A stretch of 63,096 nucleotides of DNA, the filler included, from Collodictyon triciliatum (lineage: Eukaryota): NCBI GenBank assembly GCA_043381765.1. It is 28 parts of 28 records of this genome, joined end to end, with 100 filler letters (N's around TTAATTAATTAA, not from the genome) between each part and the next. Parts side by side here need not be neighbours in the genome. Positions count along the whole stretch, not along the records: positions 15,844 to 18,004 come from JBHJMP010009387.1; positions 18,105 to 20,265 come from JBHJMP010009388.1; positions 20,366 to 22,525 come from JBHJMP010009389.1; positions 22,626 to 24,784 come from JBHJMP010009390.1; positions 24,885 to 27,044 come from JBHJMP010009391.1; positions 27,145 to 29,301 come from JBHJMP010009392.1; 22 more parts are not named here. One strand, 5' to 3'. Shown here piece after piece: positions 16,970 through 29,301 of the stretch. Under the pieces are notes generated by a model, which saw only the letters and a list, made by a program, of their open reading frames with translations, did no database searches and was not told where the DNA came from. The translations under genes were made by a program, and so were the position numbers. Numbering within the stretch: the stretch's first letter is position 1; each line of letters starts with the position of its first letter.

Positions 16970-18001
16970 ATGGCTGATCGCGCCGCCCGTCTCGAAGAGC
17001 TGCGAAAAATCGTCGGTTACGGCAGCATCGCAGAGCTCGAAAAACGCACAGTGCTGGGTCTCAATAGGAAAGATCTGACTTCTTTGCCGCCCGGTGTCTG
17101 GGATCTGACAGGCTTGGTGGACTTGTGGCTCGATGGAAACGAGCTTTCGTCGCTGCCGCCGGAAATATCGCAGTTGACAGGACTCACGAGGTTGTGGCTC
17201 TGGGAAAACCAGCTTTCGTCGCTGCCGCCGGAAATATCGCGGTTGACAGGACTCACGAGGTTGTGGCTCTGGGAAAACCAGCTTTCGTCGCTGCCGCCGG
17301 AAATATCGCAGTTGACGGGACTCGCGTTGCTTAATGTTCACAACAACCGGCTTTCGTCGCTGCCACCGGAAATATCGCGGTTGACAGGACTCGAGTCGCT
17401 TAATGTTGGTGACAACCAGCTTTCGTCGCTGCCACCGGAAATATCGCATTTGACGGGACTCACGTTGCTTGGTGTTCACAACAACCCTGTAAGTGTTTTT
17501 TTTTTTCTTTTTTTTTCTTTTTTATTTTATGAAAGAAAAGTGACTAACAACGATTTGTGCAGATCGAAGAGCTACCACCGCAAATCACGGCACTCAGAAA
17601 TCTGAAAGAGCTCTACATCGAGTATGGAGGCAAAATAAACATCAAGCGTGCACCGCGTGGAATCACGAACCTGCCGTGCTGGAACATCACAGAGAAGCCT
17701 TGGTCCGGGATGAAAATGAGTTTTGCAGACGCGCTCCGAAAGCTGGAGCTCTATAGGGGGGTAAGGCAGCAAACTGGTATTCAAAAAATGTAATCCTTAT
17801 AAACAATTATTCCCACGCTTAAAAAATAAATAAATATTTTATCAGTACGAACGCGAGATTTTAACACCAGGATGGACTCCGAGCCAGCACCAGATCGATG
17901 TGTGGACTGCGCTAGACTTCAGCGGAATGAAGCTGTCTGTGATACCCGAGTCCATTTCGCGTCTCACCAACCTCCGCGAGCTCAGCGTATTCGACAACCC
18001 T
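16970..18001 (+). CDS. LRR protein, locus A (exons 16970-17488, 17563-17760, 17846-18001; 3' partial)
   Basis: gccgccATGG start; 23-aa LRRs LSSLPPEISxLTGLxxLxVxxN; phase-0 GT-AG introns, the first with a TGACTAAC branch point. Confidence 0.93.
17138..17488 (+). repeat. Five 69-bp coding tandem repeats (48-bp constant + 21-bp variable)
   Basis: Constant unit AACCAGCTTTCGTCGCTGCCGCCGGAAATATCGCAGTTGACRGGACTC repeats at exact 69-nt periodicity. Confidence 0.95.
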
Positions 18002-18332
18002 GTANNNNNNNNNNNNNNNNNNNNNNNNNNNNNNNNNNNNNNNNNNNNTTAATTAATTAANNNNNNNNNNNNNNNNNNNNNNNNNNNNNNNNNNNNNNNN
18101 NNNNAAAAAAAGATAGATAAAAAAAGATAGATAAAAAAAGATAGATAAAAAAAGATAGATAAAAAAAGATAGATAAAAAAAGATAGATAAAAAAAGATAG
18201 ATAAAAAAAGATAGATAGAACAGACAGATGAATAGGAAAGATACAAGATAAATTCTTAAAATTCTTGAAATCGACAAACGTGCATACTAAACGACCATCG
18301 ATACATCTTGCGTATTTGGTCATGGGGTTCAG

Positions 18333-19212
18333 ACCATTGCATCCAATACTATGATTTGCGAAAGCCCAAAGACCCGATACACACTTTTCAGCAGCACAAA
18401 AAGGCGGTTTCCTACGTGCGGTTCCTTTCGAATGATGAGCTTTTGTCCGCATCGACAGATTGCACACTGCGAATGTGGAGCCTAAGCAAGGGCGAGCTTA
18501 CACGTGTTTATACGGGGTATGCACTCTGAAGCAATTTTTACTCTTGAAAAATAATAATTGTGTTCTCCTTTTTTTTTTTTAATTGCTCATCATCCGTCTA
18601 TGTGTATTGAGGAGAATAACTGATTTATTAAAACACATGCATATGCATTCCCTCGCCTAGACATTCAAACGAAAAAAACTTTGTCGGATTGACAACAAAC
18701 GGAGAGTACATTGCTTGTGGAAGTGAAGACAACTCGGTTTATCTTTACTACAAATACGTGAGCAAACCGCTCCTGGTCTACCGATTCGGCTCGACAAATG
18801 GATTGGTGCGTTGCTTGGTCATTATCATACACTTTGTGTATTACGACAAATTTAGAATATGTAAAATCGCATCTCATATTATATATTATATCATAATCAT
18901 CTATCCCTTACCCAGCGAAAGTGCAATTCTTTTTCTTCCTTTTTCTTTCAAGCGTGGGTATCAAAACTACACGCTGGATTGACTTTATCTTTTTTATTTC
19001 ATTTTGGTGCGCAAATAAAATATAATATTTTTTATTTCATATTGGTACGATGGTACTAATATTTCTTTCTTTCTTTCTATCATACATGATAGGGGGAGGA
19101 TTGTGAGGAGGACCCGTCGTTGTTTGTTAGTTCTGTTTGTATGCGCAAAAATTCAAACTACTTGCTCGCTGCAAATAGCCAAGGTACAATCAAAGTAACC
19201 GAGCTTGTGTGA
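18333..19212 (+). CDS. COP1: COP1 (RFWD2) E3 ligase, C-terminal WD40 exons (5' partial)
   Basis: [79 protein letters not shown] is the COP1 WD40 signature. Confidence 0.93.
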
Positions 19213-19750
19213 AAGTGCCGTGCAAAATATACAAAGAAATTCCTTGAAAAAAAAAAGATAATAATAAAAAAAGCTTTCAAGAATTAATCGAAACCCGAGT
19301 TGTGAGAATTGATCAGGCCATCGAATCATGACAAGCAATAGAGAGATAAAGGCAGTTTCATCAAACCATACTTTCTTTCACAGTGCTAGTGCGACATAAG
19401 ATGTACACAAACACGATTTCGCATTTACATAAACATATTATTATTTTAAATTTGGAGTTATGTTGATCTCAGAAGGGTGCATTATCACAAAAATTTGTGT
19501 CTAGAGATCTATAGTATGAAGAAAGAATAAAGAATAAAGAATAAATGATTAAGGATTACATGATAAAGATTTAATATTAGTGATTAAAGAATCAGTTTAC
19601 ATATACCCTCCATCACCCTAGGCATGAGACATTCTTTTTCTCATCTTGTTCTTCTTAATTTCATGAACGATTTATTAATGAAAAAAGAAAAAGAAAAAGA
19701 AAAAAAAAGTAGACTCAGCAGGAGGCCACGGGTGGAGCGACACAGGTGCC

Positions 19751-20053
19751 TCAGTTTCCGTCCTGCTTTCTCTTGATGATGCCTCTGATTGTGGCGAGCC
19801 ACTCACCGTAGAGGTCTTTGCTTTCGCAGCTGAGCGTGTAGATGCGGTCCGGCGTGACAATGTCGATGGCAAAGCCGGGCGCGTCTGTGGCTGTGGACTG
19901 GAACACGGCACTGGCCATGTTCAGGTTGATGAAGCCCTTCTCTGCCACGTCGTTGGGGAACTCGTAGTAGCGGATGTGGTTGTCGAAGCCCAGCACAAAG
20001 TAGCGGCGGCGCCAGCTCCTCACAAGGTTGCCGCGCTTCGTCATCCACGATGC
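19751..20053 (-). CDS. Terminal exon encoding a PH domain (5' partial), convergent with COP1
   Basis: WMTKRGNLVRSWRRRYFVL..IRYYE..KGFINL..IVTPDRIYTL..EWLATI; includes the KxG..W+RRYF phosphoinositide-binding pattern. Confidence 0.9.
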   Translation of the reverse strand, partial: ASWMTKRGNLVRSWRRRYFVLGFDNHIRYYEFPNDVAEKGFINLNMASAVFQSTATDAPGFAIDIVTPDRIYTLSCESKDLYGEWLATIRGIIKRKQDGN

Positions 20054-27044: not shown

Positions 27045-27180
27045 NNNNNNNNNNNNNNNNNNNNNNNNNNNNNNNNNNNNNNNNNNNNTTAATTAATTAA
27101 NNNNNNNNNNNNNNNNNNNNNNNNNNNNNNNNNNNNNNNNNNNNGGCTAATCTATGCATCTTTCTTACTACTCTATGTAG

Positions 27181-27283
27181 GGGGTGTGAATGTGGGCTGG
27201 ATTGTGCACCTGATGACTCCTTCTGGGTTGAATCTCGCGAGGGATTCGGAAAACGCCAAGTGAAGTCTGGCCTGGATGCGTGA
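27181..27283 (+). CDS. Putative terminal exon of an unidentified gene upstream of LRR locus B
   Basis: Homolog of 15942-16044 encoding the same peptide. Confidence 0.55.
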
Positions 27284-28195
27284 CGCAAGCCCCACGCGGG
27301 GGAGGCTGACGCTCCACGTTCATTGATCCAAAAGCTAGAGAAGGGTTGGCACCCCTTTTTTCGCGCGCGTGATGCGCGAAGCAGCTTGAAGCAGCAGCCA
27401 GCAACCAACAAAGCAAGTAGTGTGTTTTGTCTCGACTGCCTTCCTCAAGTCGTCTTTCAAGCTTCACTCACACATGTGCGAGCACACACGAGACTCGAAC
27501 AGCCTTCGACTTGCTTTCAGCTAAATAATGCAGTGTTTTTACTATGACACGCACGAAGCTTCTCAAGTAAGTCTTCTCTTCACTTTGCCACTTCATTATG
27601 TTTTTTGTTTTCTGTCTTCAGAATTCTCTTTTTTATTTTGCTACAAAACAGACACACACGAAGCTTTCTCTCAAGTCATTCTCCCACTTTGCCATTTGAT
27701 TTTTCTTTAGAATTTTGGCAAAATTTCCGCTTCATACTGCTGCCCACGCGCGAAGCTTCTTGTAAGTCTTATTGTTATCGAATCATAATTTGTCTTATGT
27801 TTTTTTGTTAGATTTCGTCGAACTTTGCTAAACTTTTTTATTTTCCAGTTATTGTGTTTTTCATGTTATTTTCAATAGAAGTCTTCCAAATCAACCTTTT
27901 TTTTCTTGCCAGCCGTCTAGTTTTCGCCGCTATCTCCGCTATCCTTACTATTGACGCTCAAAACCCAAGTGCACCTCCGGATATCTGCTATTTATTTCGC
28001 AGTTGATTCGTCCCTCTTCACTTTCCTTCCTTTCTGCCACAACCAGTGATCTGCAACCCGTCACCTTCTCCCATTCCCAAGCAATATGACACCAAACAAA
28101 TAAACACTGCGCAACCTGCTCACACAAAACTCGACTCATTCGTCTCCAGTTACCTCAGAGAGCGCCACAACCACTTTCCGTCCCCCTCCGCCGCC

Positions 28196-29301
28196 ATGGC
28201 TGATCGCGCCGCCCGTCTCGAAGAGCTGCGAGAAATCGTCGATTTCGACAGCAGCGCGGAGCTCGAAGAATGCACAGAGCTGTATCTCGATAGGAAAAAT
28301 CTGACTTCTGTGCCGCCTGGTGTCTGGGATCTGCCAGGCTTGGAGTACTTGTGGCTCGTTGGAAATGAGCTTTCGTCGCTGCCGCCAGAAATATCGCGGC
28401 TGACGGGACTCACGTACCTTAGTGTTGGTGGGAACCAGCTTTCGTCGCTGCCGCCGGAAATATCGCAGTTGACGGGACTCACGGAGCTTCGTGTTGGTGG
28501 AAACCAGCTTTCGTCGCTGCCGCCGGAAATATCGCAGTTGACGGGACTCAAGTGGCTTAGTGTTAGTGGAAACCAGCTTTCGTCGCTGCCGCCGGAAATA
28601 TCGCAGTTGACGGGACTCAAGTGGCTTAGTGTTAGTGGAAACCAGCTTTCGTCGCTGCCAACGGAAATATCGCAGTTGACAGGACTCAAGTTACTTAATG
28701 TTAGTTACAACCAGCTTTCGTCGCTGCCGCCGGAAATATCGCAGTTGTCGGGACTCAAGTGGCTTAGTGTTAGTGGAAACCAGCTTTCGTCGCTGCCGCC
28801 GGAAATATCGCAGTTGACAGGACTCGAAGCGCTTGATGTTTCCCTGAACCCTGTAAGTGTTTTTTATTTTTTATTTTATTTTTTATGTTTTTATGAAAGA
28901 AAAGTGACTAACGATGTGTGCAGATCGAGGAGCTTCCACCGCAAATCACGGCACTCACGAATCTGAAGAATCTTAACACCGAGTCTGGAGGCAAAATAGA
29001 TATCAAGCGTGCACCGCGTGGAATCACGAACCTGCCGTGCTGGAAAGAAAAAGGAAGAGATGCAGACGCGCTCCAAAAGCTGCGGCTATACGAAGTACCA
29101 GTAAGTCATATTAATACAATAAAATAAAACGTTTTTTTTTTTTTAAAAAAAACGAAGAATACTAAAAATAACGAATAGGATGCAGATATGCTGAAGCCAG
29201 GCTGGACACCGAACGCAACCCAAATCCGCTTTGAATCGCTGAATTTTTACGGAATGAACATATCTGCGCTTCCACCCAACATCACGCGCATGACAAATAT
29301 C
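28196..29301 (+). CDS. LRR protein, locus B (exons 28196-28852, 28924-29100, 29179->29301; 3' partial)
   Basis: Same start context and exon structure as locus A; exon 1 is exactly 138 nt (2x69) longer. Confidence 0.93.
28364..28852 (+). repeat. Seven 69-bp coding tandem repeats (48-bp constant + 21-bp variable)
   Basis: Same constant unit as 17138-17488 at exact 69-nt periodicity. Confidence 0.95.

What the first reader, a model, noticed from the sequence alone, without database searches (positions are those of the whole stretch)
16970..29301. Cassette-built, hypervariable LRR receptor pair: candidate protist diversifying recognition system
Seen: loci A (16970-18001) and B (28196-29301), on separate contigs, share start context, N-cap and introns. 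Exon 1 has 5 vs 7 exact 69-bp cassettes. Each cassette has a 48-bp scaffold conserved even at most synonymous sites and a 21-bp xxLxVxx segment that varies: TRLWLWE x2, ALLNVHN, ESLNVGD, TLLGVHN in A; TYLSVGG, TELRVGG, KWLSVSG x3, KLLNVSY, EALDVSL in B. No variable segment is shared between the two loci, and identical segments recur within a locus, including non-adjacently. Known: the x positions form the concave ligand-binding face of LRRs and are the diversified sites in lamprey VLRs, plant NLRs and Ectocarpus LRR-ROCO genes. Inference: the invariant scaffolds act as recombination or gene-conversion handles that shuffle specificity modules. There is no signal peptide, so the product would be an intracellular immune-like repertoire in a protist.
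Basis: partly seen in the sequence, partly recalled or inferred. Interest (0 to 1): 0.88.

Follow-up and report, generated by a model that had tools for sequence, protein, structure and literature searches.

The report
Fast-evolving protist LRR repeat gene family
Two broken-off copies of a large gene family from a little-studied freshwater-type protist encode leucine-rich-repeat proteins whose repeats are almost identical except at the five residues that would touch a ligand. This resembles known fast-diversifying receptor families, but the fragments do not show a special cassette-shuffling machine.

Summary
Loci A and B are intron-containing eukaryotic genes whose first exons carry 5 and 7 exact 69-bp LRR units. 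Each unit is a 48-bp scaffold (5.9% mean pairwise difference) plus a 21-bp xxLxVxx segment (43%).

The variable segments coincide with all 7 predicted beta-strands. Between A and B, scaffolds differ as little as non-coding flanks (5.8% vs 5.3%), while variable segments differ by 46% (p about 1e-27).

This is not a pair. Two public runs each hold hundreds of similar contigs, one with spliced forms carrying other x residues. At least 8 further paralog clusters exist. Named relatives of the family-specific exon-2 module are all from Diphylleia rotans, where such LRR blocks sit on Roc-COR, kinase or RING proteins.

Best reading: a large germline family of intracellular LRR proteins evolving by repeat duplication, inter-paralog exchange and diversifying selection on ligand-face residues. 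It parallels fungal high-internal-conservation NLR repeats and brown-algal LRR-ROCO genes.

Shuffling of 21-bp modules has one supporting case only. Immune function and the downstream domains are unknown. The short-read arrays contain 68-94 nt exact repeats and may be mis-assembled.

The parts
15906..16969 (+). Locus A 5' flank (non-coding as far as seen), shared with locus B
   Evidence: 55 mismatches in 1049 aligned bases against 27145-28195. No convincing ORF.
16970..17488 (+). Locus A exon 1 (173 codons): N-terminal helix and cap (16970-17137), five 69-bp LRR units (17138-17482), then AACCCT (N-P)
   Evidence: Pfam LRR_4 E 2.5e-25 and LRR_8 E 3.1e-16. TRF period 69.
17489..17562 (+). Locus A intron 1 (GTAAGT...CAG, T-rich, ACTAAC near the 3' end)
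   Evidence: The orthologous intron of B is absent from 8 of 8 X3 contig joints that end at exon 2.
17563..17760 (+). Locus A exon 2 (66 codons): family-specific module IEELPPQITAL...KRAPRGITNLPCW...
   Evidence: 71 library proteins match at E<=1e-3. Aligned with 8 paralog clusters.
17761..17845 (+). Locus A intron 2
   Evidence: GTAAGG...TATCAG, frame continuity.
17846..18004 (+). Locus A exon 3 (52 codons, start of a second LRR block, ends ...DNP) followed by GTA at the contig end
   Evidence: The contig breaks at another N-P|GTA exon end.
27145..28195 (+). Locus B 5' flank; its first ~500 bp is itself multi-copy in public runs
   Evidence: Depth and contig counts in X2 and X3 over 27145-27650.
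28196..28852 (+). Locus B exon 1 (219 codons): N-cap (28196-28363), seven 69-bp LRR units (28364-28846), then AACCCT
   Evidence: Pfam LRR_8 E 2.1e-34. AlphaFold2 pLDDT 91.5 with beta-strands inside all 7 variable segments.
28853..28923 (+). Locus B intron 1
   Evidence: GTAAGT...CAG. Skipped exactly in X3 contigs (tables 5 and 5c).
28924..29100 (+). Locus B exon 2 (59 codons)
29101..29178 (+). Locus B intron 2
   Evidence: GTAAGT...AATAG.
29179..29301 (+). Locus B exon 3, cut by the contig end

Best explanation
A and B are two 5' fragments of a large, transcribed, germline-encoded family of intracellular LRR proteins. The source is a eukaryote most likely belonging to or near Diphyllatea (CRuMs).

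**Protein (modelled).** Each protein starts with a short helix and an LRR cap. A run of 23-residue LRRs follows, forming a curved solenoid. The sixteen scaffold residues (NQLSSLPPEISQLTGL) build the convex side and core. The five x residues of xxLxVxx line the concave beta-sheet, the usual ligand-binding face.

**How diversity arises (inferred).**
1. Whole 69-bp units are duplicated and lost in register by unequal recombination or slippage. The near-identical scaffolds make this easy.
2. Paralogs exchange sequence by recombination or gene conversion.
3. Selection favours amino-acid change at the x codons and keeps them different while the rest stays homogeneous.

**Function (inferred by analogy).** The products probably act as ligand-recognition modules feeding a downstream signalling domain. 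In relatives this domain is a Roc-COR GTPase, a kinase or a RING. In A and B it is cut off by the contig ends. What they recognise, and any immune role, is unknown.
For: **Shown.**
- Exact 69-bp units, 5 versus 7, with duplicated units A1=A2 and B3=B4, and B6 carrying the same 21-mer.
- LRR identity.
- A confident solenoid model (pLDDT 91.5) with strands at residues 74-78, 97-101, 120-125, 143-148, 166-171, 189-194 and 212-217. All 7 fall inside the variable segments.

**Rates.**
- A vs B non-coding: 59/1117 = 5.3%.
- Scaffolds: 14/240 = 5.8%.
- Variable segments: 48/105 = 45.7% (Fisher p 1.7e-27).
- Even choosing the best-matching B unit for each A unit gives 42/105 (p 4.7e-22).
- Nei-Gojobori proportions over the 66 unit pairs: x codons pN 0.555 and pS 0.41; scaffold pN 0.039 and pS 0.109. 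So pN(x) is about 5 times the scaffold synonymous rate.
- L and V codons between the x codons are invariant in 10 of 12 units.
- The N-cap also shows 17 non-synonymous against 2 synonymous differences.

**Exchange between paralogs.**
- A-B divergence jumps from about 5% (flank, intron 1) to 19-32% (intron 2) and 30% (exon 3, 33/111).
- Scaffolds are no more alike within a locus than between loci (0.0625 and 0.0575 vs 0.058) or at the same position.
- A1 and B1 share the unit-1 marker GAG, yet their 21-mers differ at 13/21 bases, including the L and V codons.
- P0123 combines A-like and B-like stretches.

**Family size and expression.**
- 529 contigs (X2) and 425 contigs (X3) lie on the 2157-bp B contig at 85% likeness or more.
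- Up to 23 (X2) and 16 (X3) distinct contigs cover a single site.
- In X3, 8 of 8 listed joints ending at exon 2 lack intron 1 exactly. They carry eight different final x pairs: YS, YN, IQ, HG, DS, HS, ER, SS.
- 8 further exon-2 clusters come from unnamed 523-844 bp NCBI contigs, all with the same intron position.

**Architecture of relatives.** Diphylleia rotans proteins carry the same exon-2 module together with Roc + COR-A + DUF4062, with protein kinase, or with RING.
Against: - Only 12 units from two truncated genes were available. The pairwise counts are not independent, and pN/pS within the x codons alone is only 1.37, with saturated sites.
- The N-cap excess of non-synonymous change is not significant (Fisher p 0.165).
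- Four-gamete violations in the scaffold (5 of 6 site pairs) could be recurrent CpG transitions rather than recombination.
- The arrays contain 68- and 94-nt exact repeats. They come from a short-contig assembly of a multi-copy family, so order, number and even the locus of origin of individual units may be assembly chimeras. Illumina assemblies of comparable fungal repeats are reported as unreliable (PMC12222747, abstract and impact statement).
- A and B could be alleles rather than paralogs.
- X3 is only guessed to be RNA, and X2 is a metagenome in which variants may come from several strains or species.
- The source reads of the window were not found (best share of words 0.14).
- No effector domain is linked to A or B.
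Confidence: 0.6

Rival explanations
1. The 48-bp scaffolds are dedicated recombination or gene-conversion handles, and whole 21-bp specificity modules are shuffled within and between loci (possibly from donor cassettes) to build a combinatorial repertoire.
For: - Identical 21-mers recur at adjacent and non-adjacent positions: A1=A2, and B3=B4=B6.
- The TRLWLWE module uses different L and V-position codons (TTG, CTC) from the other 10 units. It sits in an ordinary scaffold whose unit-1 marker matches B1, so this module was replaced or is much older than its frame.
- 5 of 6 scaffold site pairs show all four gametes.
- There is kilobase-scale mosaicism between A and B.
Against: - No 21-mer is shared between A and B.
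- In 10 of 12 units the L and V codons inside the variable segment are identical while the neighbouring x codons differ, a 3-bp mosaic that conversion tracts cannot make.
- x-codon variants are mostly one-step neighbours (codon table).
- There are 0 scaffold matches outside the two arrays in 63 kb.
- Both germline genes are already complete open exons.
- The four-gamete sites are CpG/CpA sites.
Confidence: 0.2
2. Somatic or clonal diversification, as in lamprey VLRs: arrays are rearranged within the lifetime of a cell lineage.
For: None directly. Only the existence of many variants in run X3, which carries a single organism label.
Against: - Many germline paralogs explain the variants. Exon-2 modules diverged to 42-70% identity with a conserved intron position.
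- No incomplete germline gene, donor cassettes or signal peptide were seen.
- Nothing here can separate somatic from germline variation.
Confidence: 0.03
3. Largely an assembly artefact: the two arrays are chimeric or collapsed paths through a repeat graph of many paralogs. Unit counts, orders and the 'no shared segment' statement would then carry no meaning.
For: - Exact repeats of 68 and 94 nt lie inside the arrays.
- All 28 contigs are about 2.15 kb, and both genes end at contig ends, A exactly at an N-P|GTA exon end.
- Hundreds of similar contigs exist in other runs.
- Short-read assemblies of fungal high-identity repeats are reported as unreliable (PMC12222747, abstract).
Against: - Each distinct 21-mer and its junctions to scaffolds must exist in reads.
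- The reading frame, register (0% indels) and splice sites are intact in both loci.
- Independent runs hold 99%-alike pieces (72 contigs in X2, 58 in X3) and spliced forms.
- The feature itself (scaffold plus hypervariable x codons) does not depend on unit order.
Confidence: 0.12
4. Ordinary signalling LRR proteins (adaptor or scaffold type) with relaxed constraint on surface residues. On this view there is no recognition repertoire.
For: - Surface x positions are the least conserved in all LRR proteins (established knowledge).
- pN/pS at the x codons is only 1.37.
- Relatives carry generic signalling domains.
Against: - x-site divergence (46%) is about 9 times the non-coding divergence of the same two loci.
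- Interleaved codons are frozen, which neutral drift cannot give.
- The family has dozens of expressed variants.
Confidence: 0.05

Closest known systems
Fungal NLR (HNWD/nwd, het-d/het-e) WD40, ANK and TPR repeats with high internal conservation
   Same: - Tandem repeats are nearly identical at nucleotide level.
- Repeat number varies.
- A few hypervariable positions per repeat lie on the binding surface and are under diversifying selection.
- Repeats are exchanged within and between family members.
- Short-read assemblies are unreliable.

Sources: PMC1805685 abstract; PMC4986451 passages; PMC12222747 abstract.
   Different: - The repeat type here is LRR. Fungal NLRs were reported to have no LRRs (PMC4986451 abstract).
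- No NACHT or NB-ARC domain is seen, because the genes are truncated.
- 5 of 23 residues vary here, against 4 of about 42 in the fungal repeats.
- Inter-locus exchange of repeats is not demonstrated here.
Ectocarpus (brown alga) LRR-ROCO candidate receptors
   Same: - A protist-grade eukaryote with an expanded LRR family.
- Positive selection on concave-face residues.
- Proposed reshuffling of LRR modules.
- A likely Roc-COR link.

Sources: PMC3341825 passages; PMC11378527 title and abstract start only.
   Different: - In Ectocarpus each LRR is its own 72-nt exon and diversity comes from exon shuffling.
- Here 5-7 LRRs of 69 nt are contiguous in one exon. Introns fall only after the N-P that closes a block, so any shuffling must be by unequal recombination or conversion.
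- Roc-COR is not shown to be in the same gene.
Cyanobacterial LRR-Roc-COR proteins (for example P0105 Nostoc sp. MAG, P0023 Nostoc punctiforme, P0064 Nostoc sp.)
   Same: - Best 'longer' protein hits, 49-62% identity.
- They have the same 23-residue unit with an almost invariant NQLSSLPPEI.QL..L scaffold.
- Variability is concentrated at columns 18, 20, 22 and 23 (5 of the 6 bacterial-type hits examined, out of 120 listed).
   Different: - These are prokaryotic genes without introns.
- Their nucleotide-level conservation was not examined.
- The similarity may reflect the shared LRR consensus rather than close kinship.
- They lack the exon-2 RAPxGITxLPCW module.
Diphylleia rotans LRR-block proteins (EukProt transcriptome; P0121, P0126, P0127, P0134, P0141 and others)
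   Same: - They share the family-specific exon-2 module (E down to 1e-29, 40-47% identity).
- They share the N-terminal helix-plus-cap organisation and super-repeats of LRR block plus cap module.
- The window's Roc-COR ORF matches P0121 (E 3e-19).
   Different: Their LRR units are ordinarily diverged. For P0126, per-column identity is mostly 0.2-0.5. The near-identical 69-bp units are seen only in the window's sub-family.
Lamprey/hagfish variable lymphocyte receptors (recalled, not checked in a paper here beyond the mention in PMC3341825)
   Same: LRR concave-face hypervariability, and modular LRR cassettes.
   Different: - VLRs are assembled somatically from flanking donor cassettes into an incomplete germline gene, and they are secreted or membrane-anchored.
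- Here the germline exons are complete, with no signal peptide and no donor cassettes seen.

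Membership tests
Leucine-rich repeat proteins (typical 23-residue LxxLxLxxNxL type) | Pfam LRR profile matches above the curated cut-off | tested here: met
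   LRR_8 117.5 bits (cut-off 27) for B. LRR_4 88.4 bits for A.
Leucine-rich repeat proteins (typical 23-residue LxxLxLxxNxL type) | Solenoid fold with one short beta-strand per repeat at LxLxx | tested here: met
   AlphaFold2 pLDDT 91.5, pTM 0.87. There are 9 regularly spaced strands, 7 of them inside the variable segments.
ROCO proteins (LRR-Roc-COR) | Roc GTPase and COR domain in the same polypeptide as the LRRs | tested here: inconclusive
   Both genes are cut after exon 3. A Roc + COR-A ORF preceded by an LRR end lies on a different contig (31446..29402, minus) and cannot be linked. The relative P0121 has LRR + Roc + COR-A.
NLR / STAND receptors | Central NACHT or NB-ARC nucleotide-binding domain | not testable with these tools
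   No such domain lies in the 291 (A) or 319 (B) codons available. The downstream part is missing, and no whole genome is held.
High-internal-conservation repeat receptors (fungal nwd type) | Repeats nearly identical at nucleotide level within a gene | tested here: met
   Scaffold mean pairwise difference 0.059; 9 of 16 scaffold codons invariant in 12 units.
High-internal-conservation repeat receptors (fungal nwd type) | Few hypervariable sites per repeat on the binding surface, with dN > dS | tested here: inconclusive
   Five x codons lie on the predicted strands. pN/pS is 1.37 within the x codons and about 5 against scaffold pS. Only 12 units, no site model, and recombination not modelled.
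High-internal-conservation repeat receptors (fungal nwd type) | Repeat exchange within and between loci (concerted evolution) | tested here: inconclusive
   Scaffolds are equally alike within and between loci. A and B are mosaic. But no variable segment is shared between the loci.
Ectocarpus-type LRR exon shuffling | One LRR per exon, flanked by same-phase introns | tested here: not met
   5 and 7 LRRs, plus the cap LRRs, are contiguous in exon 1.
VLR-type somatic cassette assembly | Incomplete germline gene plus flanking donor LRR cassettes | tested here: not met
   Exon 1 is complete and open in both loci. There are 0 scaffold matches outside the arrays in the window. Only 63 kb could be searched.
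VLR-type somatic cassette assembly | Signal peptide; secreted or anchored product | tested here: not met
   The N-terminus MADRAARLEELR... is a predicted hydrophilic helix (residues 2-15), like the N-termini of the Diphylleia relatives.
VLR-type somatic cassette assembly | Array differences arising within a clone | not testable with these tools
   The source reads were not found. Only assembled contigs of other runs could be laid.

The most novel reading that the evidence does not exclude
The near-identical scaffolds sustain frequent exchange of beta-strand modules among dozens of loci, not only in the germline but also mitotically within clonal lineages. This would give a deep-branching CRuMs flagellate an anticipatory, LRR-based intracellular recognition repertoire. 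It would be an independent invention alongside lamprey VLRs, fungal high-internal-conservation NLRs and brown-algal LRR-ROCOs.
Probability: 0.05. Interest if true: 0.92.

Novelty: new variant of a known kind. Interest (0 to 1): 0.5.

Why it matters
If the family is as large and fast-evolving as the laid contigs suggest, it would be the first LRR-based example of a 'high internal conservation plus hypervariable sites' repertoire in a eukaryote outside animals, plants, fungi and brown algae. It would come from CRuMs, a supergroup near the base of Amorphea whose genomes are only now being drafted.

The 2026 preprint with the first Diphyllatea single-cell assemblies has 0 occurrences of 'leucine-rich' in my search. 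That search and searches found no description of such a family.

The finding would add a data point on how often unicellular predators evolve diversified intracellular sensors, and on whether ROCO-type LRRs are a recurrent platform for them. It also warns that such arrays cannot be trusted in short-read assemblies.

Tried and rejected
- **Whole-genome search:** no genome is held for this window.
- **Rfam** on the whole window: 0 matches.
- **Earlier findings of the scan:** none by place or by sequence.
- **Protein searches that found nothing:**
  - the N-cap (residues 1-56) against proteins of 95-303 aa;
  - the Roc-COR ORF against proteins of 374-1192 aa.
- **Metagenome contig scans that found nothing:**
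  - a 29-letter scaffold pattern;
  - the exon-2 peptide: 588 pattern matches, none confirmed.
- **Sequencing-run search:** no run holds more than 0.14 of the sampled words, so the window's own reads were not available. Array integrity, copy number by depth and within-clone variation could not be tested.
- **Runs X1 and X5:** only 10 and 6 contigs were laid, which is uninformative. I draw no habitat conclusion from the run labels.
- **Joints in X3 that skip 427-440 nt:** first read as paralogs with fewer units. I rejected this, because a short contig's scaffold can align to any unit.
- **First 'longer' protein search:** dominated by repeat-consensus matches to bacterial ROCO proteins. It is not evidence of orthology or of horizontal transfer.
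- **Plant NLR hits (P0124; P0130 Camelina):** multi-stretch LRR matches, not relatives of the exon-2 module.
- **Four-gamete test on scaffold sites:** positive but confounded by CpG context.
- **RING/B-box ORF at 62023-62427:** similarity to P0141 is weak (E 1e-4, RING only).

Full report
**1. What the window is**

The 63,096-base window is not one stretch of chromosome. It is 28 contigs of 2149-2165 bp, sorted by length and joined by N/TTAATTAATTAA spacers. Many contigs end in simple repeats.

Locus A lies on contig 15844-18004 and locus B on contig 27145-29301. Their neighbourhood in the window therefore says nothing about linkage. No whole genome is held for the window.

**2. The observation**

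Both loci start at an identical GCCGCCATGGC context and encode MADRAARLEELR....

Gene models, read from the sequence and checked frame by frame:

| Part | Locus A | Locus B |
|---|---|---|
| Exon 1 | 16970-17488 | 28196-28852 |
| Intron 1 | 17489-17562 | 28853-28923 |
| Exon 2 | 17563-17760 | 28924-29100 |
| Intron 2 | 17761-17845 | 29101-29178 |
| Exon 3 | 17846-18001, then GTA and the contig end | 29179-29301, cut |

- All introns are GT-AG, T-rich and in phase 0. In A, each closes a block right after the codons for N-P.
- Tandem Repeats Finder gives period 69 with no indels in both arrays.
- In register there are 5 units in A (from 17138) and 7 in B (from 28364).
- A 38-nt scaffold pattern with up to 3 mismatches occurs 11 times, only in the arrays, against 0 in 100 shuffles.
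- Mean pairwise difference among the 12 units is 0.059 in the 48-bp scaffold and 0.434 in the 21-bp segment. 9 of 16 scaffold codons never vary.

Three caveats apply:
- Intron 2 is shared in position but not in sequence.
- Both genes are truncated.
- The arrays hold exact repeats of 68 nt (A) and 94 nt (B). Unit number and order in a short-contig assembly are therefore uncertain. For fungal repeats of this kind, Illumina assemblies were shown to be unreliable (PMC12222747, abstract and impact statement read).

**3. What the protein is**

- Both first exons match Pfam LRR profiles far above the cut-offs (LRR_8 E 2.1e-34 for B; LRR_4 E 2.5e-25 for A).
- An AlphaFold2 model of B exon 1, made without an alignment, is confident (pLDDT 91.5, pTM 0.87).
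- The model shows one short strand per repeat. The seven strands of the array (74-78, 97-101, 120-125, 143-148, 166-171, 189-194, 212-217) each fall inside a variable segment (73-79, 96-102, and so on).
- In LxxLxLxxN terms the variable residues are positions 2, 3, 5, 7 and 8, the solvent-exposed concave-face positions. This mapping is established LRR knowledge, and the same reasoning appears in PMC3341825 (passages read).
- The N-terminus is a hydrophilic helix with no signal peptide. Relatives begin the same way (M, short helix, then the cap LRR), which supports the chosen start codon.

**4. How fast the parts evolve**

Differences between A and B:

| Region | Differences | Rate |
|---|---|---|
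| 5' flank + intron 1 | 59/1117 | 5.3% |
| Scaffolds (same-position units) | 14/240 | 5.8% (p 0.75 vs non-coding) |
| Variable segments | 48/105 | 45.7% (p 1.7e-27) |
| Variable, best-matching B unit for each A unit | 42/105 | p 4.7e-22 |

- The scaffold is therefore not unusually constrained between the loci. It is simply as young as the flanks, while the x codons have diverged about nine-fold more.
- Nei-Gojobori proportions over all 66 unit pairs: scaffold pS 0.109 and pN 0.039; x codons pS 0.41 and pN 0.555. The ratio is 1.37 within the x codons and about 5 against scaffold pS.
- By codon position, x codons vary at 0.55-0.61 (positions 1 and 2) and 0.35-0.42 (position 3). Scaffold third positions vary at 0.09.
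- The L and V codons wedged between the x codons are identical (CTT, GTT) in 10 of 12 units.
- Each conserved leucine position in the unit has its own fixed codon (CTT, CTG, TTG, CTC). This identity is therefore by descent, not by codon preference.
- A mosaic at 3-bp scale cannot be made by conversion tracts. It points to point mutation at x codons, retained by selection for difference, in units that are recent copies or are kept homogeneous.
- The N-cap shows the same tendency (17 non-synonymous vs 2 synonymous differences; pN/pS 2.74), but not significantly (p 0.165).

All these figures rest on 12 non-independent units. I could not run site models on a real family sample.

**5. Evidence for exchange between family members**

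- *Mosaic A and B.* A-B divergence is about 5% from the far 5' flank through intron 1. It then rises to 10.8% (first 120 nt of exon 2), 17% plus indels (rest of exon 2), 19-32% (intron 2) and 30% (exon 3, 33/111). The two loci are therefore mosaics: a recently shared 5' part of about 1.9 kb is joined to an older 3' part.
- *No clustering by locus or position.* Scaffolds are no more alike within a locus (0.0625, 0.0575) than between loci (0.058). Same-position units are no closer than shifted ones (0.058, 0.042, 0.062).
- *One replaced module.* Units A1 and B1 share a unit-1-specific codon (GAG, NELSS...). Yet their 21-mers differ at 13 of 21 bases, including the leucine codon (TTG vs CTT) and the next hydrophobic codon (CTC vs GTT). 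The TRLWLWE module is thus of different ancestry from its frame.
- *A third paralog.* P0123, an exon-2 ORF from an unnamed 523-bp NCBI contig, combines A-like (GMKMSFADAL) and B-like (ALTNLK; EVP plus intron read-through VSHINTI) stretches.
- *Four-gamete test.* 5 of 6 pairs of informative scaffold sites show all four gametes within 48 bp. Three of the four sites are CpG/CpA alternations, so recurrent mutation is an equal explanation.

Against wholesale shuffling: no 21-mer is shared between A and B, and no stray cassette exists elsewhere in the window.

**6. Size, expression and relatives of the family**

The window's own reads were not found; the best run holds 0.14 of the sampled words. Four runs were laid on the B contig at 85% likeness or more.

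- X2 (labelled a metagenome, DNA guessed) gave 529 contigs: 72 at 99% or more, 133 at 95-99%, 209 at 90-95% and 115 below 90%.
- X3 (single organism label, RNA guessed) gave 425 contigs: 58, 145, 145 and 77 in the same bands.
- 29 of 30 bins are covered in both. Up to 23 (X2) and 16 (X3) different contigs show the same alternative letter at one site.
- X1 and X5 gave 10 and 6 contigs.
- The first ~500 bp of the 5' flank is multi-copy too.

In X3, all 8 listed joints that land on the first base of exon 2 (or one base before it) lack the 71-nt intron 1.
- They carry 11-24 inserted letters that end in the N-P codons and encode eight different final x pairs: YS, YN, IQ, HG, DS, HS, ER, SS. A has HN and B has SL.
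- No such joint is listed for X2.
- This is what spliced transcripts of many paralogs would look like, but X3's RNA status is a guess, and 12 further joints and 4 further letter rows were not shown.

A full HMMER scan with the 66-residue exon-2 module found 71 proteins at E<=1e-3, 17 of them at E<=1e-10. I looked up 30 of the 71:
- 17 are Diphylleia rotans transcripts (EukProt).
- 9 are unnamed ORFs on NCBI contigs of 523-844 bp.
- 1 is a Camelina NLR, 2 are ENA records and 1 is a JGI record. These four are multi-stretch LRR matches.

Eight of the short NCBI ORFs align with A and B over the whole module at 42-70% identity to A. All read through into a V (GTN) at the same place, so the intron position is conserved.

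The Diphylleia proteins show what such LRR blocks are attached to:
- Roc + COR-A + DUF4062 (P0121, 2181 aa, six copies of the module).
- Protein kinase (P0127, P0134, P0138).
- RING (P0141).

The window itself holds a Roc + COR-A ORF preceded by an LRR end on another contig (31446..29402, minus strand). It matches P0121 at E 3e-19 but found no relatives of similar length. None of this links a particular effector domain to A or B.

The organism is thus most likely a diphyllatean or a close relative. This is inferred from one lineage-restricted module, not from a marker gene.

**7. Comparison with what is known**

*Fungal nwd/HNWD family (closest mechanistic parallel).* Its WD40 repeats have high internal conservation, vary in repeat number, have four hypervariable surface positions under diversifying selection, and are exchanged within and between loci (PMC1805685 abstract; PMC4986451 passages). 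Fungi were reported to have no LRR versions (PMC4986451 abstract).

*Ectocarpus LRR-ROCO family (closest taxonomic and functional proposal).* It has 72-nt single-LRR exons, exon shuffling and positive selection on the concave face (PMC3341825 passages). Here the LRRs are contiguous within one exon, so that defining feature is not met.

*Cyanobacterial LRR-Roc-COR proteins.* At protein level the same 'invariant NQLSSLPPEI.QL scaffold plus variable columns 18, 20, 22, 23' pattern is present in 5 of the 6 bacterial-type top hits I inspected (P0105, P0023, P0064, P0004, P0002; less so in P0001). These were 6 of 120 listed. The pattern as such is therefore not unique to this protist.

*Diphylleia relatives.* The units of P0126 are ordinarily diverged.

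*Lamprey VLRs.* They share only the concave-face logic. An incomplete germline gene, donor cassettes and a signal peptide were tested and not met.

*Literature.* I found no paper describing this family. The Diphyllatea single-cell genome preprint has 0 occurrences of 'leucine-rich' (passages read). Supplements were closed.

**8. Verdict**

- The sequence observation is real and far from chance.
- It overreaches in calling the loci a 'pair', in treating scaffold conservation as special, and in inferring a cassette-shuffling mechanism and immune function.
- Best reading (confidence 0.6): a large germline family of intracellular LRR recognition modules. It evolves by in-register unit duplication and loss, inter-paralog recombination, and diversifying selection on five concave-face residues per repeat.
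- I rate it a new variant of a known kind, of moderate interest. It would be considerably more interesting if long reads confirm the arrays and a family-wide analysis shows module exchange or within-clone variation.

Noticed in passing
window 29402-31446, minus strand (contig 29402-31559): A 681-codon open frame begins right after an intron acceptor with an LRR end (IASIPHKI...NLKGNPIQ). It continues into Roc (E 2.4e-10) and COR-A (E 2.5e-9) domains, so it is a ROCO gene fragment. It matches Diphylleia P0121 (E 3e-19) but found no relatives of 374-1192 aa in the big protein library.
   Followed up: partly
window 27145-27650 (and 15906-16400 in locus A): The distal ~500 bp of the 5' flank of both loci is itself present in many variants and at high summed depth in runs X2 and X3. 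The AT-rich stretch 27650-27930 between it and the gene is hardly covered in X3. It could be an upstream exon, another gene's end, or a repeat element. There is no Rfam match and no convincing ORF.
   Followed up: partly
window 51176-51782, plus strand: Another LRR gene fragment with ordinarily diverged repeats (...LHVLNLSKNQ...; LVELPPDLAELQSLVTLDVSSNALSQIPQEI...). With loci A and B and the ROCO fragment, 4 of the 28 contigs carry LRR-type genes.
   Followed up: no
window 62023-62427, minus strand: RING finger (zf-RING_UBOX E 1.9e-9) followed by a Cys/His-rich, B-box-like stretch, so TRIM-like. Similarity to the RING of the Diphylleia LRR-RING protein P0141 is weak (E 1e-4).
   Followed up: partly
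window 39932-40579 minus; 62656-63096 minus: Two related ORFs with the zinc-binding domain of non-LTR retrotransposon reverse transcriptases (zf-RVT E 1.7e-8 for the first). They are retroelement remnants.
   Followed up: partly
window 485-1330 plus; 2662-4218 plus: A GC-rich 14-3-3 gene (E 1.6e-39) and a Sel1-repeat protein with very long poly-Q/poly-H runs. Coding regions are about 50-55% GC, against about 30-35% in spacers rich in microsatellites.
   Followed up: no
exon ends at 17488, 18001, 28852; exon starts at 17563, 28924, 31423 (minus): In this LRR family, introns sit in phase 0 exactly between the N-P that ends an LRR block and the I-x-x-L/I-P of the next repeat. The unlinked ROCO fragment has the same arrangement. 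This recurring, symmetric splice position would allow whole LRR blocks to be swapped as exons.
   Followed up: partly
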